DNA of 64,000 bases from Stegostoma tigrinum (Eukaryota), in NCBI RefSeq assembly GCF_030684315.1, contig NC_081380.1, positions 34,808,705 to 34,872,704 on the forward strand, given 5' to 3'. This document shows positions 3,349-64,000 of this stretch, piece by piece. The notes under the pieces were generated by a model that was given only the letters and a program-made list of their open reading frames with translations, was not told the origin of the DNA and made no database searches. The first letter of the stretch is position 1, and the number at the start of each line of letters is the position of its first letter. The position numbers and the translations under genes were made by a program.

Positions 3349-3739
3349 GTGAGGTCTTAAAAACATCTTAACTTCCATTATTAATTCCTCAGATTCAATT
3401 TTTATAGGACCAGCACTTGTTTACTATCCTTTCAAAAATGTGTAATTATTGCTTTTTTAAATATCCCTAGTTAGCTTTCTTTTGTATTCTAATTTTACCC
3501 TCCTTATTTATCTTTTGGGTCATTCCTTGCCTTTTTTTAAAATTCTACCCAATTTTCTGATTTGCCATCCTTCTTTGTATGTTTATATACCCTTAAATAT
3601 TTTCCACTGCATTTCAATTGACCTAATTGAAGGATGGAGAAGACATCTGCAGGAAATTGATACAGCATTGTCAAGTAGTTATAATGGGGGACTACAATTA
3701 CCCATAGATCTTGGCGTGCTGGGAACAGCTTTGAGGAGG

Positions 3740-3980
3740 ACAATACACAAGTCCAAAACGACATAGACAAGTTACTGGAGTTGGCAAATGGGTGGCAGAC
3801 GAGAAGCTCAATGCAAAGGAAGTGTGAGATTATGTATTTCGGTAAGAAGGACATTGAAAAAATATAAATTAAGGAGTACAAGTCTAAAGGGATACAGGAA
3901 TAGAGGGATCTAGGTATGTTTGAGCACAGATCATTGAAGGTGGAAGGACAGGTGGAGAAAATAGTTAATAAAACAAAGAG
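3740..3980 (+). mobile_element. CR1 LINE ORF2 internal fragment
   Basis: Decayed DIDKLLELANGWQ..N..KCEIMYFG and RDLG motifs. Confidence 0.65.
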
Positions 3981-4149
3981 CCTCTGATTTTGTATTTTTC
4001 ATTAAATTGTTCTTCATTTTAATTTTACACAATTTTTACAACCTCTAGCCTTTTCTGTTGATTTACTGTTAGACTTGTACTCCCCTTCTCTTAGTGGTAT
4101 AATCTGTTTATCATTTCCCACAGTAATACATTCTCTCTTGCCTTGTTTC

Positions 4150-7193: not shown

Positions 7194-7364
7194 GGTCTGA
7201 AGCGCAGCGAACAAAGCAGCATGCTGGAACTATTCCGACAGAGGCTACCCACTCCTCCTTCAGGTGGAGAGAACAATTTAACAACGTCGCTATCTGCTCC
7301 GTCCCCCGAACAAGAATCTTCCAGGATCCGTAAACTGGAAAAACTCATAAAGAAGAGGCTGTAA
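7194..7364 (+). CDS. VPS53: VPS53 final coding exon
   Basis: ttgcag|GGT; [56 protein letters not shown], the recognisable VPS53 C-terminus, in phase with the previous exon. Confidence 0.96.
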
Positions 7365-23997: not shown

Positions 23998-24213
23998 ATG
24001 GTGGGCAGCCTGAACCTGCAGGAGGTGACGGGTCCTCTAGTAGAGCCCAAGCGGCTGGGGGAGCGGGTCCTGGATAGCCCCGACTCTGGGCTTCCCCCCA
24101 GCCCCAGCCCCACGCCCAGCGCCTGGTTGCCGTCCCCAGGAGGTGCAGAGAACCGGCTGGCTGAGCAGGAAGACGCCGGCTTCCCACAGAGGAGGGGACA
24201 GTCGCTACAAACG
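23998..24213 (+). CDS. RFLNB: Refilin-B (FAM101B) coding exon 1
   Basis: MVGSLNLQEV...VLDSPDSGLPPSPSP (refilin PEST/DSG degron); donor ACG|gtaggt, phase 0. Confidence 0.93.
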
Positions 24214-24424
24214 GTAGGTACATGCAGTGGACACTGGTGTGCTTAGGGAGATGGGCTGAATTCAGTATGGATTTCAGCAATTTGCTCCCGCGTCGTGTTT
24301 GATTGATGGGCTGAATCAGCCGTGCACTGCGGGCTGAAAATTAATTTGCATCGATTTTTCAAATGTCGATTAATGCCTTCATTATTAATGTTAATGCAAC
24401 ACCGTGGAATTGTTCGAGGACAAA

Positions 24425-38818: not shown

Positions 38819-39676
38819 ACCTCCTGGCAGTGGTGGGCTGCCTTGCAACTAAGACTTTATTGTTTGTTATCTTGTAATAAAATGTGGCAAGCTGTTCCTG
38901 TTACATTGCTAAATGTAAAACCTTCTCCAGGTGTTTTGGTTATCTCCATTTTAAAAGGAATAAACATGCTCCTGCTATGTTTCCCCTTTTAGGTGTTTTG
39001 CAACTGACTTAAATCAAGTGATATTTTTCCCCCCCCCCTTTTTTCCTTTAGCTGGTCAATCAGCCAGCAGCTTGACTTTTAACCCCCTCACACCTTTATA
39101 AGTTGGTTATGTCGGGCTGACAAATTGGTTGCTGCATTTCCTCGAGTGTGAATGCCTTGAGACTAACCGCTCCTTAAGTCACGAACGGGGTATTCCAGTA
39201 CCGAATGTGCTTATTTGCTGGATATTTTTAATGATTGCCATTGTCCTGCAATGGATAGATGCATCCTTTGAACTCTAATCTGCTTTTAAGCACCAGGGCT
39301 TGGAAAAAATGTTAACTACAAAGTCAAATTTTAATGCAAATCATACTAAGATATTTCTGTTCAGGACATTTTGTTAAATTTGGAATGACTGTAAGCTCGC
39401 CTTGCAAGTTCTATCCAAGCTGTCAAAAATGCATTTTCTGATAGACTTGCCATCCTTGGGTCACTGAATTTAAACAAATCCCCACTGTGCCCTGGACAGC
39501 TTTGTTACAAATGGAAAGAAGCATGTTTGATTCCACAGTAGTTGAGTTTCCAGGTAGTAACATTTCTAGCTTCTTGTTCTTCCTAGCTTACTATCCAGTG
39601 TAAGGCTCTTGTGTTTGGCATGCTGTAGGAAAATTTTATGCTTTGAATAAAATGCTCCTTGTCTGTATATCCCCAG

Positions 39677-40010
39677 GTACACCTCCTCTGTGAAGTATGA
39701 TTCAGACCGACACTATGTCAATAATATACTCCTGCAGCACACACTGGGTGTTGACTCCTGCAGCCAGACAGTCATCTGCGTTCCCAATTGCACATGGCGG
39801 AACTACAAGACGGAGCTGAGATTTGAGCCGCAACACAAACCGTGGAGGTTCCGCAGCACTATCATTGTGTACCCAAAGTATGCAAAGACAGTCTATACTA
39901 CCACTGTGGATTACAACTGCAGAAAAGCAGCACGGAAATTCTTGTCCAGTGTGGAACTTGAAGCTACAGATTACAATGGCAGTGAAATGGTGTTCCAGGA
40001 TAGCCAGTGA
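39677..40010 (+). CDS. RFLNB: Refilin-B coding exon 3 (filamin-binding region) to stop
   Basis: ccccag|G TAC ACC; YTSSVKYDSDRHY...CSQTVICVPNCTWRNYKTELRFEP...STIIVYPKY...DYNCRK...FLSSVELE. Spliced protein is 219 aa. Confidence 0.95.
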
Positions 40011-54270: not shown

Positions 54271-54484
54271 CCAGAACTGTCTCATCTGAAGTCGATGGAG
54301 TACTGGAAGAATTTCTTCTTGTCTTACAGGGTTTCTTCTTTTCCTTATCTCTCTTCTTAATTTTCTTCTTTTCTGCTGATTCAACACTCAGACTTGTGGT
54401 TGACTTAATCCTACATTTGCTGGTAGGTATTTTATCCTCCATTCCGAGATAACGATTGATCTTGCTTAACCTGCAATTTTGCAT
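54271..54484 (-). CDS. LIAT1: LIAT1 first coding exon (lysine-rich tract)
   Basis: ATG at 54484 (in-frame TAG directly upstream; alternative ATG 54442). EKKKIKKRDKEKKKPCK corresponds to the LIAT1 poly-K tract. Donor CTG G|gtaggg gives phase 1, matching the exon at 50104. Confidence 0.7.
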
Positions 54485-54899
54485 CTAATTTCATAAATTT
54501 TCTCTTTTCCTTTTTTTCATGTCAAAGAATCTTTTGTTTCATTTTCTTAAAATTACTGGCCAGTTTTACAGGGCAAGGATTTTCAAAAGAATATTTTTAT
54601 ATGCGCGAATCCTTGGCTCTCAAAACCACATTCGGCAGCAGAATTTAAGTACGAAACTATTTCCAACGCTTTCCTCCTCCTCCAAACTGTCCCGGATTTT
54701 AATTTGTAGTCATTCCCTCCAGTTCTTTATCGTTAAAAGTATTCTTTTTTATTACATTACTATATCGTTTGATCTTTTGCTTTGAAGCATCTGCTCTCAC
54801 CTAGAGCGAACAGGCCAAACTGTACTTCATGCTTACTCAGACAGCTTCCTGTTTAATCTATCACTTTTTCTTTTTGTTGTTCTTCGCATTCTTTCCCCC

Positions 54900-55454
54900 G
54901 TCGAAGTTAGTTGATTTATCTCCCCCTCCCTCTCACTGTTTTAAACTAGAAATCCTACTTATCCAGCGTGCACTCTGTTGTGCTATAGTCACCCTTAGGA
55001 GCCAAACGACTCGTCACCATGGAAATGCCTCTTCCCTTTCCCTTGATACATCCGCCAAAGAACATAGTCCCAATAAAAATAACCGCAGTACCAATTAAAA
55101 CAAAAAACAAACTGAAATCGTCAAGGACACTCCAGGAATTTTAAGCTAACAACATCTAATGGTCGTGAATCTGTTTCGCTTCGCGGTTTCCTAATCACCC
55201 AAGGTTTATGTATCATTCCGCCGCCGTCCCACTTTGCGCCTGGTCTGAGCTGAGCTGCGGCTACAAAATGCCGGGCGGCTTTCTGGTTTTCCGTTCCCAG
55301 TTTAAGACCCGTGATGTTTTCAGCTGTGCTCGGGGGTGGTGGAAGCAATGAGGCTTGATCGGCTTTGGAATCTAAGAGTAGTTTCAGTGTGGCTGAAGTA
55401 TGAACTCGGAGACGGAACCGACCTTCGAAGTCACTAGTGGGGCGGCTCACGGGG
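54900..55454. promoter_or_regulatory. Bidirectional CpG-rich promoter between LIAT1 and EXO5, with an RFX X-box-like motif at 55013-55026
   Basis: Divergent start codons 970 bp apart; local CpG enrichment; GTCACCATGGAAAT. Confidence 0.6.
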
Positions 55455-55599
55455 ATGGACAATCACAGGCCAGAAGGTGTTGGAGGGATGGTTGATGCGG
55501 ACGGACAAACGTGCCGGAAGTCGAGTGGAACGATGCAGCCGGAGCTTAGTGACGCGGAGCTCCTCGCATTGGAATTGGATTTGTTCTGCGGCGAATGTG
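55455..55599 (+). CDS. EXO5: Exonuclease V coding exon 1
   Basis: gggATGg Kozak; ...PELSDAELLALELDL resembles the EXO5 N-terminal SDLSDSEFLEFLDL motif; donor G|gtactt, phase 1. Start could be 55455, 55488 or 55533. Confidence 0.7.
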
Positions 55600-55659
55600 G
55601 TACTTGGTTCATTAATACTTGTAGATGAAGCATTACAGTGAAGCTGATCCTGTCTGTTA

Positions 55660-57610
55660 TCGAGCATACAGCACGGAAACAGACCCTTCGGTCCAACTCG
55701 ATCATGCCGAACAAATTTCCCGAATTACTAAACATGTCCCATTTGCCTGCATTTGGACCATATCCCTCTAACCCCTTCCGATTCACGTACCTGTTCAGGT
55801 GTTTTTAAAAACGTCTTAATGCATCTACCACCTCCTCCGGCAGATCATTTCCACTACGAGATAACAAAGTGTGGAGCTGGATGAACACAGCAGGCCAAGC
55901 AGCATCTTAGGAGCACAACCGCCCAAAGAGGATCCCCCTCGTTCTCACACACCACCCCACCAACCTCCGGATACAACGCATCATCTTCCACCATCTACAA
56001 TCCGACCCCACCACCCAAGACATTTTTCCATCCCCACCCTTCTCTGCTTTCCGGAGAGACCACTCTCTCCGTGACTCCCTTGTTCGCTCCACACTGCCCT
56101 CCAACCCCACCACACCCGGCAACTTCCCCTGCAACCGCAGGAAATGCTACACTTTTCCCCCACACCCCCTTCCCTCACCCCTATCCTAGGCCCCAAGATG
56201 ACTTTCCATATTAAGCAGAGGTTCACCTGCACATGTGCCAATGTGGTATACTGTATCCATTGTACCCGGTGTGGCTTTCTCCACATTGGGGAAACCAAGC
56301 GGAGGCTTGGGGACCGCTTTGCAGAACACCTCCGCTTGGTTCGCAACAAACAACTGCACCTCCCAGTCGCAAACCATTTCCACTCCCCCTCCCATTCTTT
56401 AGATGACATGTCCATCATGGGCCTCCTGCAGTGTCACAATGATGCCACCCGAAGGTTGCAGGAACAGCAACTCGTATTCCGCTTGAGAACCCTGCAGCCC
56501 AATGGTATCAATGTGGACTTCACCAGCTTCAAAATCTCCCCTTCCTCCACCGCATCCCAAAACCAGCCCAGTTTGTCTCCTCCCCCCACTGCACCACACA
56601 ACCAGCCCAGCTCTTCCCAGGCACCCACTGCATGCCAAAACCAGTCCAGCCTGTCTCTGCCTCCCTAACCTGTTCTACCTCTCACCCATCCCTTCCACCC
56701 CAAGCCACACCTCCATCTCCTACCTACTAACCTCATTCCACCTCCTTGACCTGTCCCCTCCCCACCTCTACTCTCGTCTCCACCTATCTTCTTTTCTCTC
56801 CATCTTTGGTCTGCCTCCCCCTCTCTCCCTATTTATTCCAGAACCCTCACCCCATCCCCCTCTCTGATGAAGGGTCTAGGCCTGAAATGTCAGTTTTTGT
56901 GCTCCTGAGGTGCTGCTTGGCCTGCTGTGTTCATCCAGCCTCACATTTTATTATCTTGGATTCTCCAGCATCTGCAGTTCCCATTGTTTCTGATACATTT
57001 CCACATACAAACAATTCTGTGTGTGGGGAAAAGAAAAACAAAGTTGCTGGAAAAGTTCAGCAGTTCTGGCAGCATCTGTGAAGGAAAATAATCAGAGTGA
57101 ATGTTTCAGGTCCTCTTCCTCCGAACTGCACGTGGAAAAGGTTGTCCCTCAAGGTCCCTTTTAAATCTTTTTTTCTTCTCACCTTAAAGATATGCCACCC
57201 TCAGGAAAAGACTTCTGCTATTCACCTTATCTATGCCCCTCGTGATTTTATAGACTTCTTACAAGGTCACCTCTCAACCTCCTACACTCCAGTGAAAAAG
57301 TCCCAGCCTATCCCTATAACTTCTTCCTTCCTGGTAAATCTTTTCTTAACTTCTCCAACTTAATAATATCCCATCCCTTAGGGTAACTAGAACTGAAGAC
57401 TGTACTCCAAAAGTGACTTCACCAACGTCCTGTACAGTCTCAACATGATATCCCAACTCCTATACTCAGTGGTCTGAGCAATGAAAGCAAGTGTGCTAAA
57501 TGCCTTTTTAACCACTTTGTCTACCTGTGATGCAACTTTCAAAGAATTAGGTACTTGAACCCTCTAGGTCTGTATGTTCAACAACACTACCCAGGGCCCT
57601 ACTGTTAACT
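55660..57610 (-). mobile_element. CR1 LINE 3' fragment interrupted by two Penelope-family insertions
   Basis: Antisense tail catacagcacggaaacagacccttcggtcc at 55665; the CR1 sequence resumes at ~57000 and ~57130. Confidence 0.8.
55858..56995 (+). mobile_element. Penelope-like element, 5'-truncated, with GIY-YIG endonuclease ORF, pLTR/hammerhead and a short inverted 5' arm
   Basis: ORF 56144-56668 FTCTCANVVYCIHCTRCGFLHIGETKRRLGDRFAEHL...PVANHF...EQQLVFRL.TLQPNGIN; ctgatga...gaaa at 56864; TSD catttccac(a)tac at ~55846 and ~56996. Confidence 0.92.
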
Positions 57611-57815
57611 ATTTATTTTCCTTTTCAGGTGGCTGTTTAAAGATTTGTTAGCAGTGGAATCAATAGCCTAATGTTTTTACTACTAGACTATTAATTCAGA
57701 AACCCAATTTCCAATTGGTAATTAAAAGTCTAATGGTGACTATCAATTGTTAGGGAAAAAAATGTGGTTAAATAATGTCTTATTGGAAGGAAACTGCTGC
57801 CTCAGTGTGACTTCA
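57485..57815 (+). repeat. Donor arm of a ~330 bp near-perfect inverted duplication
   Basis: Reverse complement found at 58902-59236. Confidence 0.92.
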
Positions 57816-58179
57816 GATCCATAGAAATGATAATAGATACTTGTCAAAATAGTGGTGCCCACATTCCATGAGCAACTAAAAACACTCCTGTGACTCAGAA
57901 GGGTCTCTGTTCAAGTAGTATCCAGAATTGGAGTTCAGGCTGACCTACCCTTCTGGTGCAGTGCCAAGAGCATAGCACACTTATGAGAAGAGCAGGGAAG
58001 TTACTCCCAATATATTCTTCTGTTCAGTAATTATCCTACAATCAGCAGTTAAGGAGGCTGCAATTTAGTGGTAATATCACTGGATTAGTAATCTAGAGAC
58101 TAACCCTTGGGTTTTAATTTAACCTTGCTAAAAGTCAAATTAATTAATTAATTGAAAAAACCAGGAGTTGAAAACTGGT

Positions 58180-58398
58180 ATAATAATAGGGCATAGAACT
58201 GGATGAACACAGCAGGCCAAGCAGCATCAGAGGAGCAGGAAAGCTGGTGTATCGGGTCTGGACCCTTCTTCAGAAGAAGGGTCCAGATCCAAAACGTCAG
58301 CTTTCCTGCTCCTCTGATGCTGCTTAGCCTGCTGTGTTCATCCAGCTCTACGCCTTGTTATCTCAGATTCTCCAGTATCAGCAGTTCCTGCTATCTCT
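58180..58398. mobile_element. Foldback Penelope pLTR element (related subfamily) inserted into a SINE
   Basis: Inverted arms fused at cccttcttcagaagaaggg; TSD gttgaaaactg at 58167-58177 and 58399-58409. Confidence 0.85.
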
Positions 58399-58901
58399 GT
58401 TGAAAACTGCTGTTGTGAAACTATTGTCAGTTGCTGTAAAAACCTCATACACTTCATTGTCATTCTTACCAACTCTGGCCTATGTGTGACTGAGACCTAC
58501 AGCTGTGTGGTTGACTCCATGTGGTCTGCTAGCCACAATTCAAGGAAGGGAAGGAATGAACAACAATAGGGAGGTCACATTCCACAGCAGAAAATCAAAT
58601 AATTCTCACTTTATTGCTTGTGAGAGCCAATATTACTATAGCAACTACACTTTTTAGATGGCTTAATTTGTTGTGAAGTGCTCTGGGATGTCCTGTGGTT
58701 GTGTAGATGCCAGACTTTCTTTTCGGAGCAGGCAATTTCTTAGTAACCTGACCAACATTCTTTTCAATTAACAAAAAACACAAATTGGCCTAATACAAAA
58801 TGCTGGAGCAAATCAGCACGTCTGACAGATCTGTGGAGAGAGAAACGATAAACATTTCAAGTCTAGTTCAGCTTTGCTGAATGTTATCTGTATTGCTTGT
58901 T

Positions 58902-59236
58902 TGAAGTCACACCGAGGCGGCAGCAGTTTCCTTCCAATAAGACATTATTTAACCACATTTTTTTTCCCTAACAATTGATAGTCACCATTAGACTTTTAAT
59001 TACCAATTGGAAATTGGGTTTCTGAATTAATAGTCTAGTAGTAAAAACATTAGGCTATTGATTCCACTGCTAACAAATCTTTAAACAGCCACCTGAAAAG
59101 GAAAATAAATAGTTAACAGTAGGGCCCTGGGTAGTGTTGTTGAACATACAGACCTAGAGGGTTCAAGTACCTAATTCTTTGAAAGTTGCATCACAGGTAG
59201 ACAAAGTGGTTAAAAAGGCATTTAGCACACTTGCTT
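58902..59236 (-). repeat. Inverted copy of 57485-57815
   Basis: Differences found by eye: a 3-nt indel, one substitution and a 1-nt homopolymer length difference. Confidence 0.92.
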
Positions 59237-59477
59237 GTCTTTCTTCCTACATTTTCTCTTTTTATTTCAGATTTACACCATAGGTGGAATTTGACTTGTG
59301 TGTTTCCAGCATTTCCTATTATTTCAACTGGTCACTTCTCTGATTTCCTGTTTGTGGGATTTTGTTGTGTTCGAATTGGTTCAGATTTGAGTAAACAATA
59401 ATAATTTCAATTTAAAAAGTAATGTAGAATCTGTTTTGAGGTCCTAAGGATAGGCTGTAAATACTGTATTTTCTTTT

Positions 59478-60331
59478 TGTAATTTTGTTTGTGGACTGAA
59501 AAGGGAACAGATGTTTGTTCGTTTTAAAAACCAATGATATTGGAAAGGAATACTACGTGTTTTAAAAGCTACTTTAAACTGCTGTTTGCTCAAGGAGACG
59601 GGAAGTCTAGTTGCAGGCAAACCTGAGCCAAGGGGTGTGTATGAATGGAGCTTTTGTCGGGCAACAGGTAGCTGAGGGACAACTGGTCAGTACCAACCAG
59701 ACCAATAAAAAACACTTGTCAACAACTGTGTAATTGGCTCCCAGGTAACTGACCATCTTGTGGGTGTGAATGTTTCAATAGGAGTCATTGGATGGACCTC
59801 CAGAAAAGGAGGAGTTATCCTCTCTGCAGTAAAAACATTTTGCATCTGAAGAAAGTCTATTTCCCTTCAATTGTTGTAAGCTGTTGTGGTTAACCAATAA
59901 GTGAGATACTTTATTAGTGTGAACCAGTTACCCTGTATCTCCTGCAAGCAATTGACAGTACTTGGAATGTTGAGGAGCAACAAACCAGGGCAAGCTGAGC
60001 CGGGACCATTTAGGCTGTCTCCTTCGGCCTTTGACTCCTGTATTTTATATTTTCTCTGTAGGTGTGTGTATAGGGGAATTTTATCAGTGCTTGGAGTTTC
60101 AACTAGTAGAGTTATACATTGATGGTTCATAGATTTATCTACAGGTAAATAACTATTTATTTGTAATAATAAATATTAATTTTAAGTACAGAAACCTGGT
60201 CCATGATTTCTGTCAACCTGTGTCTGAAAGACAGATAAATTGGGGAATTTTGTGACCTGTTGTTAAATTTTGTGTTGACTGTAGGAATAGCCAAGCTTTA
60301 TTGCTCACATGCTACCCCAGTGAGATGTCAC
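59478..60331 (+). mobile_element. Possible solo LTR
   Basis: TGT...TGTCACA termini with an internal AATAAA at ~60167. No TSD found. Confidence 0.3.
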
Positions 60332-60499
60332 AATGCCAATTTTATGTCCCATTTTTATTTAAACTACTCATCTTTTGATTAATTGTTTGTCACTTCTGTG
60401 GTTTTCCTAAGCTGTCTTTATAGTTCATCACCTGTCTCGCTCATTGAAATAGCTTGAGAGGTTTTTTTCTGTCAACAAATGATAGCCTTTTTTTAAAAG

Positions 60500-61020
60500 G
60501 CATGTTGTCATCTTGCTGAGCTTCCTGAATTCTGTTGCCCTATGTATGATGGCAGTCTGTCATTGATGCTGAAACACTCAGTCATGACGACTATTCCATC
60601 ACATTCCTGTCTGGTCTCTTGTATTCCAACCTCCATTTGCTCAAAGTCTTCCAAAAACATTCCTAACCTTTTTATCAGGTTTTGTTCCCCCATCACTCCT
60701 ATGCTCGCTGACCCACAATCACTTGAAAAATTCTCATCCTTATTCTCAAATCCCTTCATAACGATTCCCTGGGATATGTGTCTCTCTAATTCTGGCCTCC
60801 TGGGCATTCCCATTTTTAACTGTTCCATCATTGATAGATATCCCCTCTGTTGCCTAGACCCCAAGATCCCCACTCTCCCCATCTGTATCTTCCTTTTTAA
60901 GCCATTTTTAAAACCTACTTCTTTGACCAATTGTTCAGTCATCTGACTTAATGTCACCTTTGTGACTGAATATCTCTGTCTCTGTTTTATAACACTCCTG
61001 TGGAGTAACTTAAGTCTTCT
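60500..61020 (+). mobile_element. L2-clade LINE 3' fragment
   Basis: SPITPMLAD remnant of the L2 HITPVL..LHWL motif and an L2-type 3' UTR. Confidence 0.65.
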
Positions 61021-62053
61021 ATTTCATGAGTGTCCTAAGTTCCTGTAGGCTAATGGTGTCCCCTATTTATCTGTATACTTAAATTTTCTTTGTCCAAAAT
61101 TAAGCCTCTGATTTTGTTTCTAGTTATGACCGAATAGACTTGATAAATATTCATTTATCATTTGGTAGAGTTTGGATTTTATATGTGTGCACATGGCATA
61201 TCACCCTGCTTTTATTTTGCCCGCTCTCACCCATGAAAGCACCCACGTCAGATCTTGTTTAGTCAACCTGACTGTACACTTTTTTTATCTTGCTGATATT
61301 CTTCCCACCAGCTCCCGATCACAATGCTGCATGCTGGCCTATGTGTGGTCAGCTGGCTCAAGCCATCTGATGTAGGCTCACATGACAAGAGTACTCGTGG
61401 TAATTGCTGTCCCATGACGTAGTAAGAATGCCTAGAATTGGAAATAAGTACAGGTTGTGTGGAAGCACAAAGACTTGAATTTATGTAGCACCTCAGGAGG
61501 TCTCCAAGCACTTCAAAGCCAATTAAATATTTGTGAAATATTAAAGTAATTTAGGAAAGAATGGCAGCCAATTTACACACACCAAATCCAGCAATGAGAC
61601 AATGACCGACTGTCTATTTCAGTGGTGTGAGTTGAGGGTTAAATGTTGACCAAATAGGCAGATATTGATGCTGGAATTTTTGTTTTTGTGAATAATTTGA
61701 CAGCACAAGAATGCATTTTAAAGTTCTGAAATTATTGATAAATTGCATTATCTTTTGTCATTAAATCTTATGCATCATTTTATCTGTCAACCAGTTTAAC
61801 TTTTTTTGAATGAGCATGCAATTTACTTTAAAGTTCAACAAGCTGAATGTTTCTTAAGTTGTATGAAGTCATAATGTCAGATATACATTTCCTGAAGTAT
61901 TATACTGCATTGTAACTTTTTTGTAACCATTTGGAGGGAAGTATAGGTTTTTAGTTTTAGTATAACTGAAATTTTAAATCAGTTTGAAAAGAGAATGTGT
62001 AAAGTTTACAGCAATATGTATCCTGACTTTTTGTTTAATTTCTGATCTTCTAG

Positions 62054-62150
62054 ACAAACCTGAACTAAATGAGGGAGATGATGGTCACACTTCTAGCAGA
62101 TCTGCTGAATCTTGCTGTACTGGACAAGGGACTGTTGAAGATACTTGTAG
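62054..62150 (+). CDS. EXO5: Exonuclease V coding exon 2 (low-complexity linker)
   Basis: ttctag|AC...TGTAG|gtaatt; (D)KPELNEGDDGHTSSRSAESCCTGQGTVEDTC(S). Phases 1/2 exactly bridge exons 1 and 3. No homology evidence on its own. Confidence 0.7.
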
Positions 62151-62449
62151 GTAATTTTTAAGTATTTAATATCATTTATATATTACTGTGGCTAATCCTT
62201 GTAGTACATTATAATAAGTCTTGGCTTGGAGATGTGGGTTAGATTGCTCATTTATCATTTAAATAGCTGAATGTGTCAATGCTTTTTATCAATTCAGCTA
62301 TTCTAGCAATGTTAAACAAAACATTGTTGGTGCCTTCCTACAAGCTCCAACGCTGGCACTTGCAGTTCTTGTGAAATCCTTTCTTAATACTTTTCGGTGA
62401 AATGAAAGAAGAAACAAAGGTGCAAAACACTAAATGGGTGAAAGCTTAG

Positions 62450-63125
62450 AAAGTGTTGTGTTGAAAGACATCTTTTCTCATAAGTCACTGAAAGCTAGCA
62501 TTTGGGTGCAACAAGCAGTTCTGAAGGCAAATAGTATATTTGCCTTAATTGCAAGAGAAGTCTTGCTTCAATTGTATAGGAACATTGGTGACACCATACC
62601 TCTAATATTGAATGCAGTCTGGTCCCCTTGCCTAAGGAAGGATATACATGCCATAGAGGGAGTACAGTCGAAATTCACCAAATTAAATGCTGGGATTGTT
62701 GGACTGTTCTACGAGATACTTGGCCTGTATTCTCTGTTCAGAATTTCGAAAAGCAAGAGGCAATCTTATAGGAAGTGACACAGTTCTTAAAGGGATAAAC
62801 TGTATATTACAGAAGGGATGCTTATTCTGTCTGCAGTGTGTAGAACCGGGTGATATAGCCTCTTATTCTGAGACTGTCTGGGACCGGGATGAGGAGGAAT
62901 TACTTCACGTGTTGAATCTTTGGAATTCTCTTCCCTGAGATGGCTGAGTAAGCTCGCTCTTTAAGTAAATTCAGGGCAAAAAATTGCTATATTTCCAGTT
63001 ACCAATAACATTGAGGGATTTGAGACAACACGAGCATATAGCATTGAGGTAATTGATGACCCATGATTTAGAATGGCTGTACAGACTTAAAGGACTGAAT
63101 GACCTATTCATGCTCCTATGTTCTA
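62450..63125 (+). mobile_element. CR1 LINE 3' fragment
   Basis: VQQAV.KANS, WSPCLRKDI.AIEGVQ and VLNLWNSLP remnants; tail gctcctatgttc. Confidence 0.8.
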
Positions 63126-63369
63126 ATGATTATTTAGGAGAAGGAAACTGTTCTCTGTTTCAGGTAGAGCAATCTAATAACTAAAATGTCCATAATTGCA
63201 TGCTTTAACATCACACACCACCCCTGGTTTTGATAGCTGGTCGTTAATTGCAAGTATTTCCTATTAAAAGGAGAATTCGATGCTGAGGTGTTCTTTGCTT
63301 GCTTCTGCCCCCATAATTGGCAAGTAAATTTGGGCAATCAATCTTTCTCTTCCCCTCCCCTGACCCCAG

Positions 63370-63626
63370 TAGAAATGAGCAATCCTCTAATCAGTCTGAA
63401 CAGAAAAGCGAAATGCCGCCTGAGGGAAGTAGCACCAAACGGAGAAAGCAGGATGAAAGGATCCCGCTGGAACGCTTTGGCCGAAAATACCTGAATGTCA
63501 CTGACCTGACTAGACAGGTTTGGTGTGAGCAGCAAGTGGTGTATGGACTGGAACTGCCACACATTGAACAACTGCGAGAAGAAGTTCCAGTTGTGAAAGC
63601 AGGTAGCTGTCTACACCTGGCAAGAG
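63370..63626 (+). CDS. EXO5: Exonuclease V coding exon 3 (start of nuclease domain); gene continues beyond the window
   Basis: ccccag|T AGA...GCA AGA G|gtaact; PLERFGRKYLNVTDLTRQVWCEQQVVYGLELP...GSCLHLAR matches EXO5 PMERF..YLYVTDL..Q.WCE.Q..YG.ELP...G..IHLARE, including the first Fe-S cysteine. Confidence 0.92.
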
Positions 63627-63779
63627 GTAACTTTTTTTTTATGCTGAAATGAACATTGTTTGTCCCAGCATCATGGTGTAATAGCTGGAAACCACACAAT
63701 CCTAAGATGCAGACCTTCATCAACAATTCTGTGCTCTTGAAAAACAAAACCTGGCGGATGGTGGGAGGGGTGATTTGAT

Positions 63780-64000
63780 ACCGGTTTTAAAATTAGTAGA
63801 TGCAAAAAGAATGTTGTGGGGGAATAGCCTAACCAGAGGTCACTAATATATAGTGAGAAATCTAGTGGAGAATTCAGAAGAAACCTCTTCATCTAAAAGA
63901 TTGTGGAACCTGGTGCCATTTTGAGTGCTTAAGGTGTATAGAAAGATGCACTTAAGTGGAGACGAGACAAATGTGAGAAAGTGAATAGATGAGGAAAGCC
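63780..64000 (+). mobile_element. CR1 LINE 3' fragment, old
   Basis: ggagaattcagaagaaacctcttcatctaaaagattgtgga remnant. Confidence 0.55.

What the first reader, a model, noticed from the sequence alone, without database searches (positions are those of the whole stretch)
55455..63626. Intron-containing EXO5 inside the VPS53-RFLNB-LIAT1 synteny block: possible ancestral parent locus
Seen: three phase-compatible coding exons (1/2/1) with at least three introns in the N-terminal part of the CDS. From recalled knowledge, which needs checking: human EXO5 has its CDS in a single exon on chromosome 1, while human 17p13.3 has VPS53, RFLNB and C17orf97 in this same orientation followed by RPH3AL, with no EXO5. 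Inference: the shark retains the ancestral spliced gene, and the intronless mammalian EXO5 is a retrocopy that replaced it (an orphan retrogene).
Basis: partly seen in the sequence, partly recalled or inferred. Interest (0 to 1): 0.7.

Follow-up and report, generated by a model that had tools for sequence, protein, structure and literature searches.

The report
Shark spliced parent of placental EXO5
This shark DNA-repair gene (EXO5) has six coding exons with ancient intron positions, while the human gene codes from one exon on another chromosome, so placental mammals likely replaced the original gene with an RNA-derived copy, a known kind of event that was probably listed already.

Summary
Observation confirmed. 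The three exons and phases 1/2/1 are as described, and three more exons lie just past the window. Joined, the six give exactly the 414-aa RefSeq zebra shark exonuclease V; transcript-like contigs of relatives join exons 2-6. It is the only EXO5 found in this genome.

The introns are ancestral: two positions recur, with phase, in non-vertebrate loci. The gene tree follows the species tree. Human EXO5 codes from one exon at 1p34.2. The orphan-retrogene reading holds, with corrections. The switch looks placental, not mammalian: wombat and devil gene models break at shark intron sites. RPH3AL is not downstream; EXO5 is followed by a tapasin-like gene and a Rap-GAP gene, and the RPH3AL-like gene lies 11.8 Mb away.

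I recall EXO5 (as DEM1) in the orphan-retrogene table of Carelli 2016 but could not read that table. Possibly unreported: the tapasin-like neighbour resembles a gene reported lost in placentals, so parent and neighbour may have been deleted together. Marsupial synteny was not testable.

The parts
55455..55599 (+). EXO5 coding exon 1 (ATG; 48 codons + 1 nt; phase-1 donor)
   Evidence: RefSeq model P0158 identical; joint to exon 2 not seen among the joints listed
55600..62053 (+). EXO5 intron 1 (6454 nt; holds multi-copy repeats and a 335-bp inverted duplication)
62054..62150 (+). EXO5 coding exon 2 (97 nt, phase 1 to 2)
62151..63369 (+). EXO5 intron 2 (1219 nt, GT..AG)
   Evidence: skipped by contigs of X1, X3, X5
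63370..63626 (+). EXO5 coding exon 3 (257 nt, phase 2 to 1); start of the Exo5 domain, first cluster cysteine
   Evidence: Pfam PF09810, PDB 7LWA
63627..64000 (+). Start of intron 3 (1827 nt). The gene goes on past the window: exon 4 = L005:1454-1558, exon 5 = L005:1954-2126, exon 6 = L005:3546-4013 (G000:C35:34874158-34876717)
54485..55454 (.). 970-bp CpG-rich spacer between the divergent LIAT1 and EXO5 start codons; predicted shared promoter
   Evidence: CpG observed/expected 0.75-1.1 against 0.27 for the window; promoter function inferred
54272..54484 (-). LIAT1 coding exon 1
   Evidence: tblastn of RefSeq LIAT1 P0222
49662..50108 (-). LIAT1 coding exon 2
23998..24246 (+). Refilin (RFLNB by synteny) first coding exon, approximate 3' end
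   Evidence: Pfam FAM101 E 3.7e-13
39651..40010 (+). Refilin last coding exon (open frame that holds it)
   Evidence: Pfam FAM101 E 3.9e-47
7194..7364 (+). Probable last coding exon of VPS53
   Evidence: no Pfam hit of its own; name recalled; Vps53_N exons lie upstream on the same strand at C35:34.646-34.711 Mb

Best explanation
This is the single, six-exon shark EXO5 gene, and it likely marks the ancestral locus whose mRNA was reverse-transcribed in the placental ancestor, inserted among KRAB zinc-finger genes (human 1p34.2) and kept while the spliced parent was lost. The protein would work like human EXO5, a single-strand DNA 5' exonuclease of the PD-(D/E)XK fold with an iron-sulphur cluster. 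It keeps Cys133/385/388/394, His163, Asp224, Glu238 and Lys240; their roles are recalled. Shown here: exon structure, single copy, neighbours, shared intron positions, orthology. Taken from papers: human single coding exon and location. Inferred: marsupials still spliced, timing in the placental stem, RNA-mediated origin, loss of the parent.
For: Six exons equal RefSeq X1; four joints in 3 of 3 putative RNA runs. Pfam and a lynx EXO5 query hit only this locus (3 matches of 4 candidates; 4 of 7). Of 18 metagenome loci, 5 have an intron or acceptor after codon 166 in phase 1, and 2 (L035, L036) also one after codon 259 in phase 0. The 13 loci put in the tree fall outside the vertebrate clade (98/96). 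Eutherians are sister to marsupials (100/100) in a species-like tree of 57 rows. Gene-model variants break at shark intron 5 in wombat and catfish, and near intron 1 in gar, catfish, Rhineura and devil. 0 of 87 listed eutherian records has an internal indel of 5 aa or more. Human CDS is in the final exon (PMC12004521). Human EXO5 lies with SMAP2, ZFP69B, ZFP69 at 1p34.2 (PMC13634856), and a pangolin gene model fuses a KRAB box to EXO5. A gene list for human chr17:0.14-0.84 Mb has VPS53, RPH3AL, C17orf97, FAM101B and no EXO5 (PMC7439336). EXO5 and LIAT1 lie on contigs of equal length in 10 of 10 other sharks and rays with both records.
Against: No genomic DNA of any bony vertebrate could be read. 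Marsupial splicing rests on two gene models (wombat X1, a devil UniRef record); a koala variant breaks at codon 356, where the shark has no intron. Linkage of EXO5 to LIAT1 or the tapasin-like gene outside sharks and rays is not shown; Xenopus accession numbers are 867 apart, which says little. Intron 4 in L035/L036 is phase 0, in the shark phase 1. Nine of the 15 loci that cover codon 166 have no intron there, one has it two codons off, and L028 and L029 are uninterrupted. The chance of two shared introns is 5e-5 under a uniform model but 0.005-0.10 if introns fall only at favoured sites. No poly(A) remnant or target-site duplication was examined. No monotreme, bird, coelacanth, chimaera or lamprey record was among the 120 of 392 hits shown.
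Confidence: 0.8

Rival explanations
1. The spliced gene first moved as DNA to the SMAP2-RIMS3 region in an earlier mammal, then lost all five coding introns in place by recombination with its cDNA in the placental ancestor; no separate retrocopy replaced a parent.
For: The position of marsupial EXO5 was not determined here. The shark adjacency next to LIAT1 differs from the human one, so DNA rearrangement did occur near the gene.
Against: It needs two rare events, where retroposition explains total intron loss and the move at once. Recalled, untested: the devil contig of 464.9 Mb is the chromosome homologous to human 17p, not 1p34.
Confidence: 0.1
2. The retrocopy is older than placentals (therian or mammalian stem), and the marsupial variants that look like splice forms are annotation artefacts.
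For: Only two marsupial models carry the signal, and the koala variant does not fit a shark intron.
Against: The wombat 28-aa insert falls exactly at codon 259, the site of shark intron 5, where catfish variants also break. The devil alternative N-terminus joins near intron 1, as in gar and Rhineura.
Confidence: 0.05
3. The shark gene is a paralog, and a separate intronless ortholog of mammalian EXO5 exists elsewhere in the shark genome.
For: Own-genome searches score only the best candidates, and the assembly may be incomplete.
Against: Two searches found only this locus, and an intronless copy would be the strongest hit. The tree shows one lineage that follows the species tree.
Confidence: 0.03
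4. The introns were gained in cartilaginous fish, and the intronless state is ancestral.
For: L028 and L029 are uninterrupted over codons 113-403; they may be cDNA contigs or intronless genes.
Against: Introns 3 and 5 are shared with phase by non-vertebrate loci, and fish, lizard and marsupial models break at shark intron sites.
Confidence: 0.02

Closest known systems
EXO5 / exonuclease V (DEM1, C1orf176; Pfam PF09810; PDB 7LW7-7LWA)
   Same: Full-length match to the human chain (E 3.6e-101); cysteines and PD-(D/E)XK residues align; already annotated in RefSeq as exonuclease V with three isoforms.
   Different: Six coding exons instead of one; head-to-head with LIAT1 instead of among KRAB zinc-finger genes; longer N-terminus (414 against 373 aa).
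Orphan retrogenes (Ciomborowska 2013, PMC3548309; Carelli 2016, PMC4772013), e.g. TRMT12, ZNF830, LCMT2, MARS2, RNF113A
   Same: Single-exon CDS at a new locus in one lineage, multi-exon ortholog in outgroups, parent apparently gone.
   Different: EXO5/DEM1/C1orf176 does not occur in the text of Ciomborowska 2013, which holds its table. Table 2 of Carelli 2016 and its supplements are not held as text; from memory it lists DEM1 as eutherian.
TAPBP-like gene of Grimholt 2018 (PMC5824609)
   Same: The gene just downstream of EXO5 has IgV and IgC1 exons that resemble, by eye, the frog, turtle, kiwi and opossum sequences printed in the supplement. The paper reports this gene lost in placental mammals.
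   Different: The paper names no shark copy and none of the neighbours searched for. A second tapasin-family gene at G000:C44:27.60 Mb is 41-44% identical, so orthology was not computed. It is not human TAPBPL/TAPBPR.

Membership tests
EXO5 exonucleases | Exo5 domain above the Pfam cut-off | tested here: met
   PF09810 187.8 bits for isoform P0001, cut-off 25
EXO5 exonucleases | Four cluster cysteines (one N-terminal, three C-terminal) and the D...ExK core | tested here: met
   C133, C385, C388, C394, D224, E238, K240 align with the human chain; roles recalled
EXO5 exonucleases | Single-strand DNA exonuclease activity | not testable with these tools
   needs an assay
Parent locus of an orphan retrogene | Outgroup ortholog has introns inside the CDS | tested here: met
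   five coding introns
Parent locus of an orphan retrogene | Introns are ancestral, not lineage-specific gains | tested here: met
   introns 3 and 5 shared with non-vertebrate loci; intron 4 only near; introns 1-2 not alignable to them
Parent locus of an orphan retrogene | Derived copy has an intronless CDS | tested here: met
   human from PMC12004521 (passage); indirect for other eutherians, 0 of 87 records with an internal indel
Parent locus of an orphan retrogene | Derived copy lies at a non-syntenic locus | tested here: met
   human 1p34.2 against the 17p13.3 neighbours; shark neighbours
Parent locus of an orphan retrogene | Copy nests with the parent lineage in the gene tree | tested here: met
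   eutherians sister to marsupials, 100/100
Parent locus of an orphan retrogene | Parent lost in the lineage with the copy | tested here: inconclusive
   no EXO5 in a clinical gene list for chr17:0.14-0.84 Mb and no spliced eutherian record among those listed; placental genomes could not be searched
Parent locus of an orphan retrogene | Nearest outgroup (marsupials) keeps the gene at the parent locus | not testable with these tools
   no marsupial DNA or neighbour records obtained
Parent locus of an orphan retrogene | Poly(A) remnant and target-site duplications at the copy | not testable with these tools
   no placental DNA available; such marks are expected to have decayed
TAPBP-like (Grimholt 2018), for the downstream neighbour | Groups with frog, turtle, bird and opossum TAPBP-like in a tree | not tested
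   by-eye resemblance only; PDB hits to TAPBPR for both shark paralogs

The most novel reading that the evidence does not exclude
The ancestral order was LIAT1-EXO5-TAPBP-like-RAP1GAP2. In the placental ancestor one rearrangement joined LIAT1 to RPH3AL and deleted both genes in between. EXO5 survived through its retrocopy; the third tapasin paralog had no such copy and vanished. Placental mammals would thus have lost a peptide-loading chaperone as a by-product of a deletion that a retrogene made survivable.
Probability: 0.35. Interest if true: 0.55.

Novelty: already known. Interest (0 to 1): 0.28.

Why it matters
The shark gene is an ordinary, annotated EXO5. It matters as the map of what placental mammals lost: five introns, a promoter likely shared with LIAT1, and exon-skipping variants. 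Orphan retrogenes are a known class of a few dozen human genes, and this one was probably listed in 2016 (recalled). If that recall is wrong, it is a new member of a known kind. The added value is the neighbourhood. A tapasin-like gene reported lost in placentals sits next to the lost EXO5 parent, at a point where gene order differs from human. That gives a testable cause for a placental gene loss in antigen presentation, and says where to look for remnants.

Tried and rejected
RPH3AL downstream: rejected. FYVE_2 matches on this contig lie at 23.05-23.07 Mb on the - strand. That copy is less like rabphilin-3A (58 bits) than the C34 copy (71.5 bits), so it is likely RPH3AL. Pfam on 83 of 150 top-ranked downstream frames (of 2879) hit only one Ig C1 exon, so small genes in the 200 kb could be missed.

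Metagenome scan for vertebrate host DNA: 18 loci, none vertebrate. LIAT1 search for marsupial or fish neighbours: 31 hits, the named ones only sharks, rays, birds and anoles. No profile search of cluster representatives could be run, which leaves bony-vertebrate synteny open. Xenopus accession adjacency was uninformative.

No listed run is on record as RNA; X1-X5 are guessed RNA. The exon 1-2 joint was not listed, where repeats filled the tables; this is no evidence either way. Atlas searches did not place L026 taxonomically or name the tapasin-like exon.

Paper searches pairing EXO5/DEM1/C1orf176 with retrogene terms or with the neighbours found no statement of this case; image tables and closed supplements are invisible to them. 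PMC6958779 (one passage) and PMC10751288 (passages; its tapbpl is the gene beside CD4/LAG3) did not help. Three look-ups of earlier findings returned nothing.
Full report
Place. The window is G000:C35:34808705-34872704. A RefSeq protein named exonuclease V of Stegostoma tigrinum, on a contig of the same length (50,098,721), matches it, so this is the zebra shark.

The gene. Past the window lie exons 4-6 (L005:1454-1558, 1954-2126, 3546-4013). Joined, the six give 1245 nt and a 414-aa protein identical to RefSeq isoform X1, with introns after codons 48, 80, 166, 201 and 259 in phases 1, 2, 1, 1, 0. Contigs from 3 of 3 putative RNA runs of related organisms (three studies) skip introns 2-5 at GT..AG, while a DNA-like run covers the stretch without these joints. 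The exon 1-2 joint was not among those listed. The protein matches human EXO5 chains over residues 89-400 (E 3.6e-101) and keeps the four cysteines and the D...ExK residues (roles recalled). It would act as a single-strand DNA exonuclease in repair, as PMC12004521 describes the human enzyme (passages).

Single copy. The Pfam family (3 matches of 4 candidates) and a lynx EXO5 query (4 matches of 7 candidates) hit only this locus. These searches give lower bounds, but an intronless paralog would be the easiest hit.

Neighbours. Vps53_N exons lie upstream on +, refilin exons at 24.0 and 39.7 kb on +, and LIAT1 on -. The LIAT1 and EXO5 start codons are 970 bp apart over a CpG-rich stretch (observed/expected 0.75-1.1 against 0.27), so a shared promoter is likely. 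EXO5 and LIAT1 lie on contigs of equal length in 10 of 10 other sharks and rays that have both records. Whale shark accession numbers are four apart. Next comes a + strand gene with IgV and IgC1 exons (L007). Then comes a Rap-GAP gene on - (C35:34.94-34.96 Mb), RAP1GAP2 by recalled synteny and N-terminus. The RPH3AL-like gene is 11.8 Mb away on the same contig.

The introns are old. A metagenome scan gave 18 loci. I aligned all 18 with a spliced aligner. At codon 166 phase 1: L026, L035 and L036 have the intron, and L027 and L030 have its acceptor. L031 has one two codons off, 9 loci have none and 3 do not cover the site. At codon 259 phase 0: L035 and L036 have it, 14 lack it (the L038 alignment is poor there) and 2 do not cover it. 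L035 and L036 also have an intron after codon 201, but in phase 0 where the shark has phase 1, and one more near codon 320. L028 and L029 are uninterrupted. Two exact coincidences have a chance of 5e-5 if sites are uniform and 0.005-0.10 if limited to favoured sites. The organisms are unnamed; the 13 put in the tree fall outside the vertebrates (five short or near-duplicate loci were left out).

Other vertebrates. No genomic DNA was available, so I used differences between gene models of one species (20 pairs). Breaks fall at codon 259 in wombat (28-aa insert) and in two catfish variants, and near intron 1 in gar, two catfish species, Rhineura and devil. A koala variant breaks at codon 356, which fits no shark intron; the other pairs were uninformative. 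Four sharks have models lacking exactly exon 4. By contrast, 0 of 87 listed eutherian records from ten clusters has an internal indel of 5 aa or more; they differ at the ends only. PMC12004521 states that the human CDS lies within the final exon in all transcripts. PMC13634856 lists EXO5 with SMAP2, ZFP69B and ZFP69 in a 1p34.2 deletion (passage), and a pangolin model fuses a KRAB box to EXO5. PMC7439336 lists VPS53, RPH3AL, C17orf97 and FAM101B, and no EXO5, for chr17:0.14-0.84 Mb (table passage). The tree of 57 proteins follows the species tree apart from the split of amphibians, with eutherians sister to marsupials at 100/100.

Reading. Loss of all five coding introns together with a move is the mark of retroposition. 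A species-like tree, spliced-looking marsupial models and no spliced eutherian record put it in the placental stem, with loss of the parent (0.8). The main rival is a DNA move followed by intron loss in place (0.1). Only marsupial synteny separates the two, and I could not get it.

What is known. Orphan retrogenes are an established class. EXO5 and its synonyms do not occur in Ciomborowska 2013 (passages with most of Table 1). In Carelli 2016 I saw the outline, passages and section 13; Table 2 and the supplements are not held. I recall a DEM1 row for eutherians there, about 70% sure, and my timing agrees with it. Two reviews mention the ten genes without naming them (passages). Searches found no text calling EXO5 a retrogene. 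I therefore score the main claim as probably known.

The boldest reading. [quoted passage not shown] The gene right after shark EXO5 resembles, by eye, the sequences printed in its supplement. A second tapasin-family gene on C44 (41-44% identical) makes orthology unproven. If the order LIAT1-EXO5-TAPBP-like-RAP1GAP2 lasted to the therian ancestor, two adjacent genes vanished on the same branch where LIAT1 gained RPH3AL as neighbour. One deletion, survivable because EXO5 had a retrocopy, would explain all three (0.35). Searches found no paper that links these genes.

Verdict. Interest 0.28.

Noticed in passing
L007:354-2099 (G000:C35:34.893-34.895 Mb), + strand: Tapasin-family gene (IgV + IgC1 exons) directly downstream of EXO5; resembles the TAPBP-like gene that Grimholt 2018 reports lost in placental mammals; the paper names no shark copy.
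   Followed up: partly
L051:4890-8251 (G000:C44:27.60 Mb): Second tapasin-family gene, 44% (IgV) and 41% (IgC1) identical to the first; possibly TAPBPR. A cluster of weaker IgV matches lies at C44:22.7-23.8 Mb.
   Followed up: partly
window 54485-55454: LIAT1 and EXO5 are head-to-head, 970 bp apart, over a CpG-rich stretch; a retrocopy would have left this likely shared promoter behind.
   Followed up: partly
G000:C35:34.94-35.07 Mb (L011-L024), - strand: Rap-GAP gene, likely RAP1GAP2, tail-to-tail with the EXO5 and tapasin-like genes; the RPH3AL-like gene is at C35:23.05-23.07 Mb.
   Followed up: partly
window 63602-63626 and L005:1454-1558: RefSeq isoform X3 uses an earlier donor and drops 8 residues including conserved His163; four other sharks have models that skip the 105-nt, phase 1-1 exon 4 in frame.
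   Followed up: no
window 57485-57815 and 58902-59236: 335-bp inverted duplication, 98.5% identical, inside EXO5 intron 1.
   Followed up: no
window 55914-56985: Multi-copy repeat in intron 1 with a 197-aa open frame (56075-56668) that looks like a retroelement endonuclease end (recalled; not scanned).
   Followed up: no
protein list: No bird EXO5 among the 120 best of 392 hits, although turtles, crocodilians and lizards are there; birds may have a diverged or lost gene.
   Followed up: no
proteins P0267 and P0269: The bat Phyllostomus discolor has two EXO5-like records on one chromosome, a possible local duplication of the placental copy.
   Followed up: no
L028:333-1214, L029:268-1116: Two non-vertebrate loci with uninterrupted EXO5 cores, and several others with few introns: cDNA contigs or independent intron loss.
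   Followed up: partly
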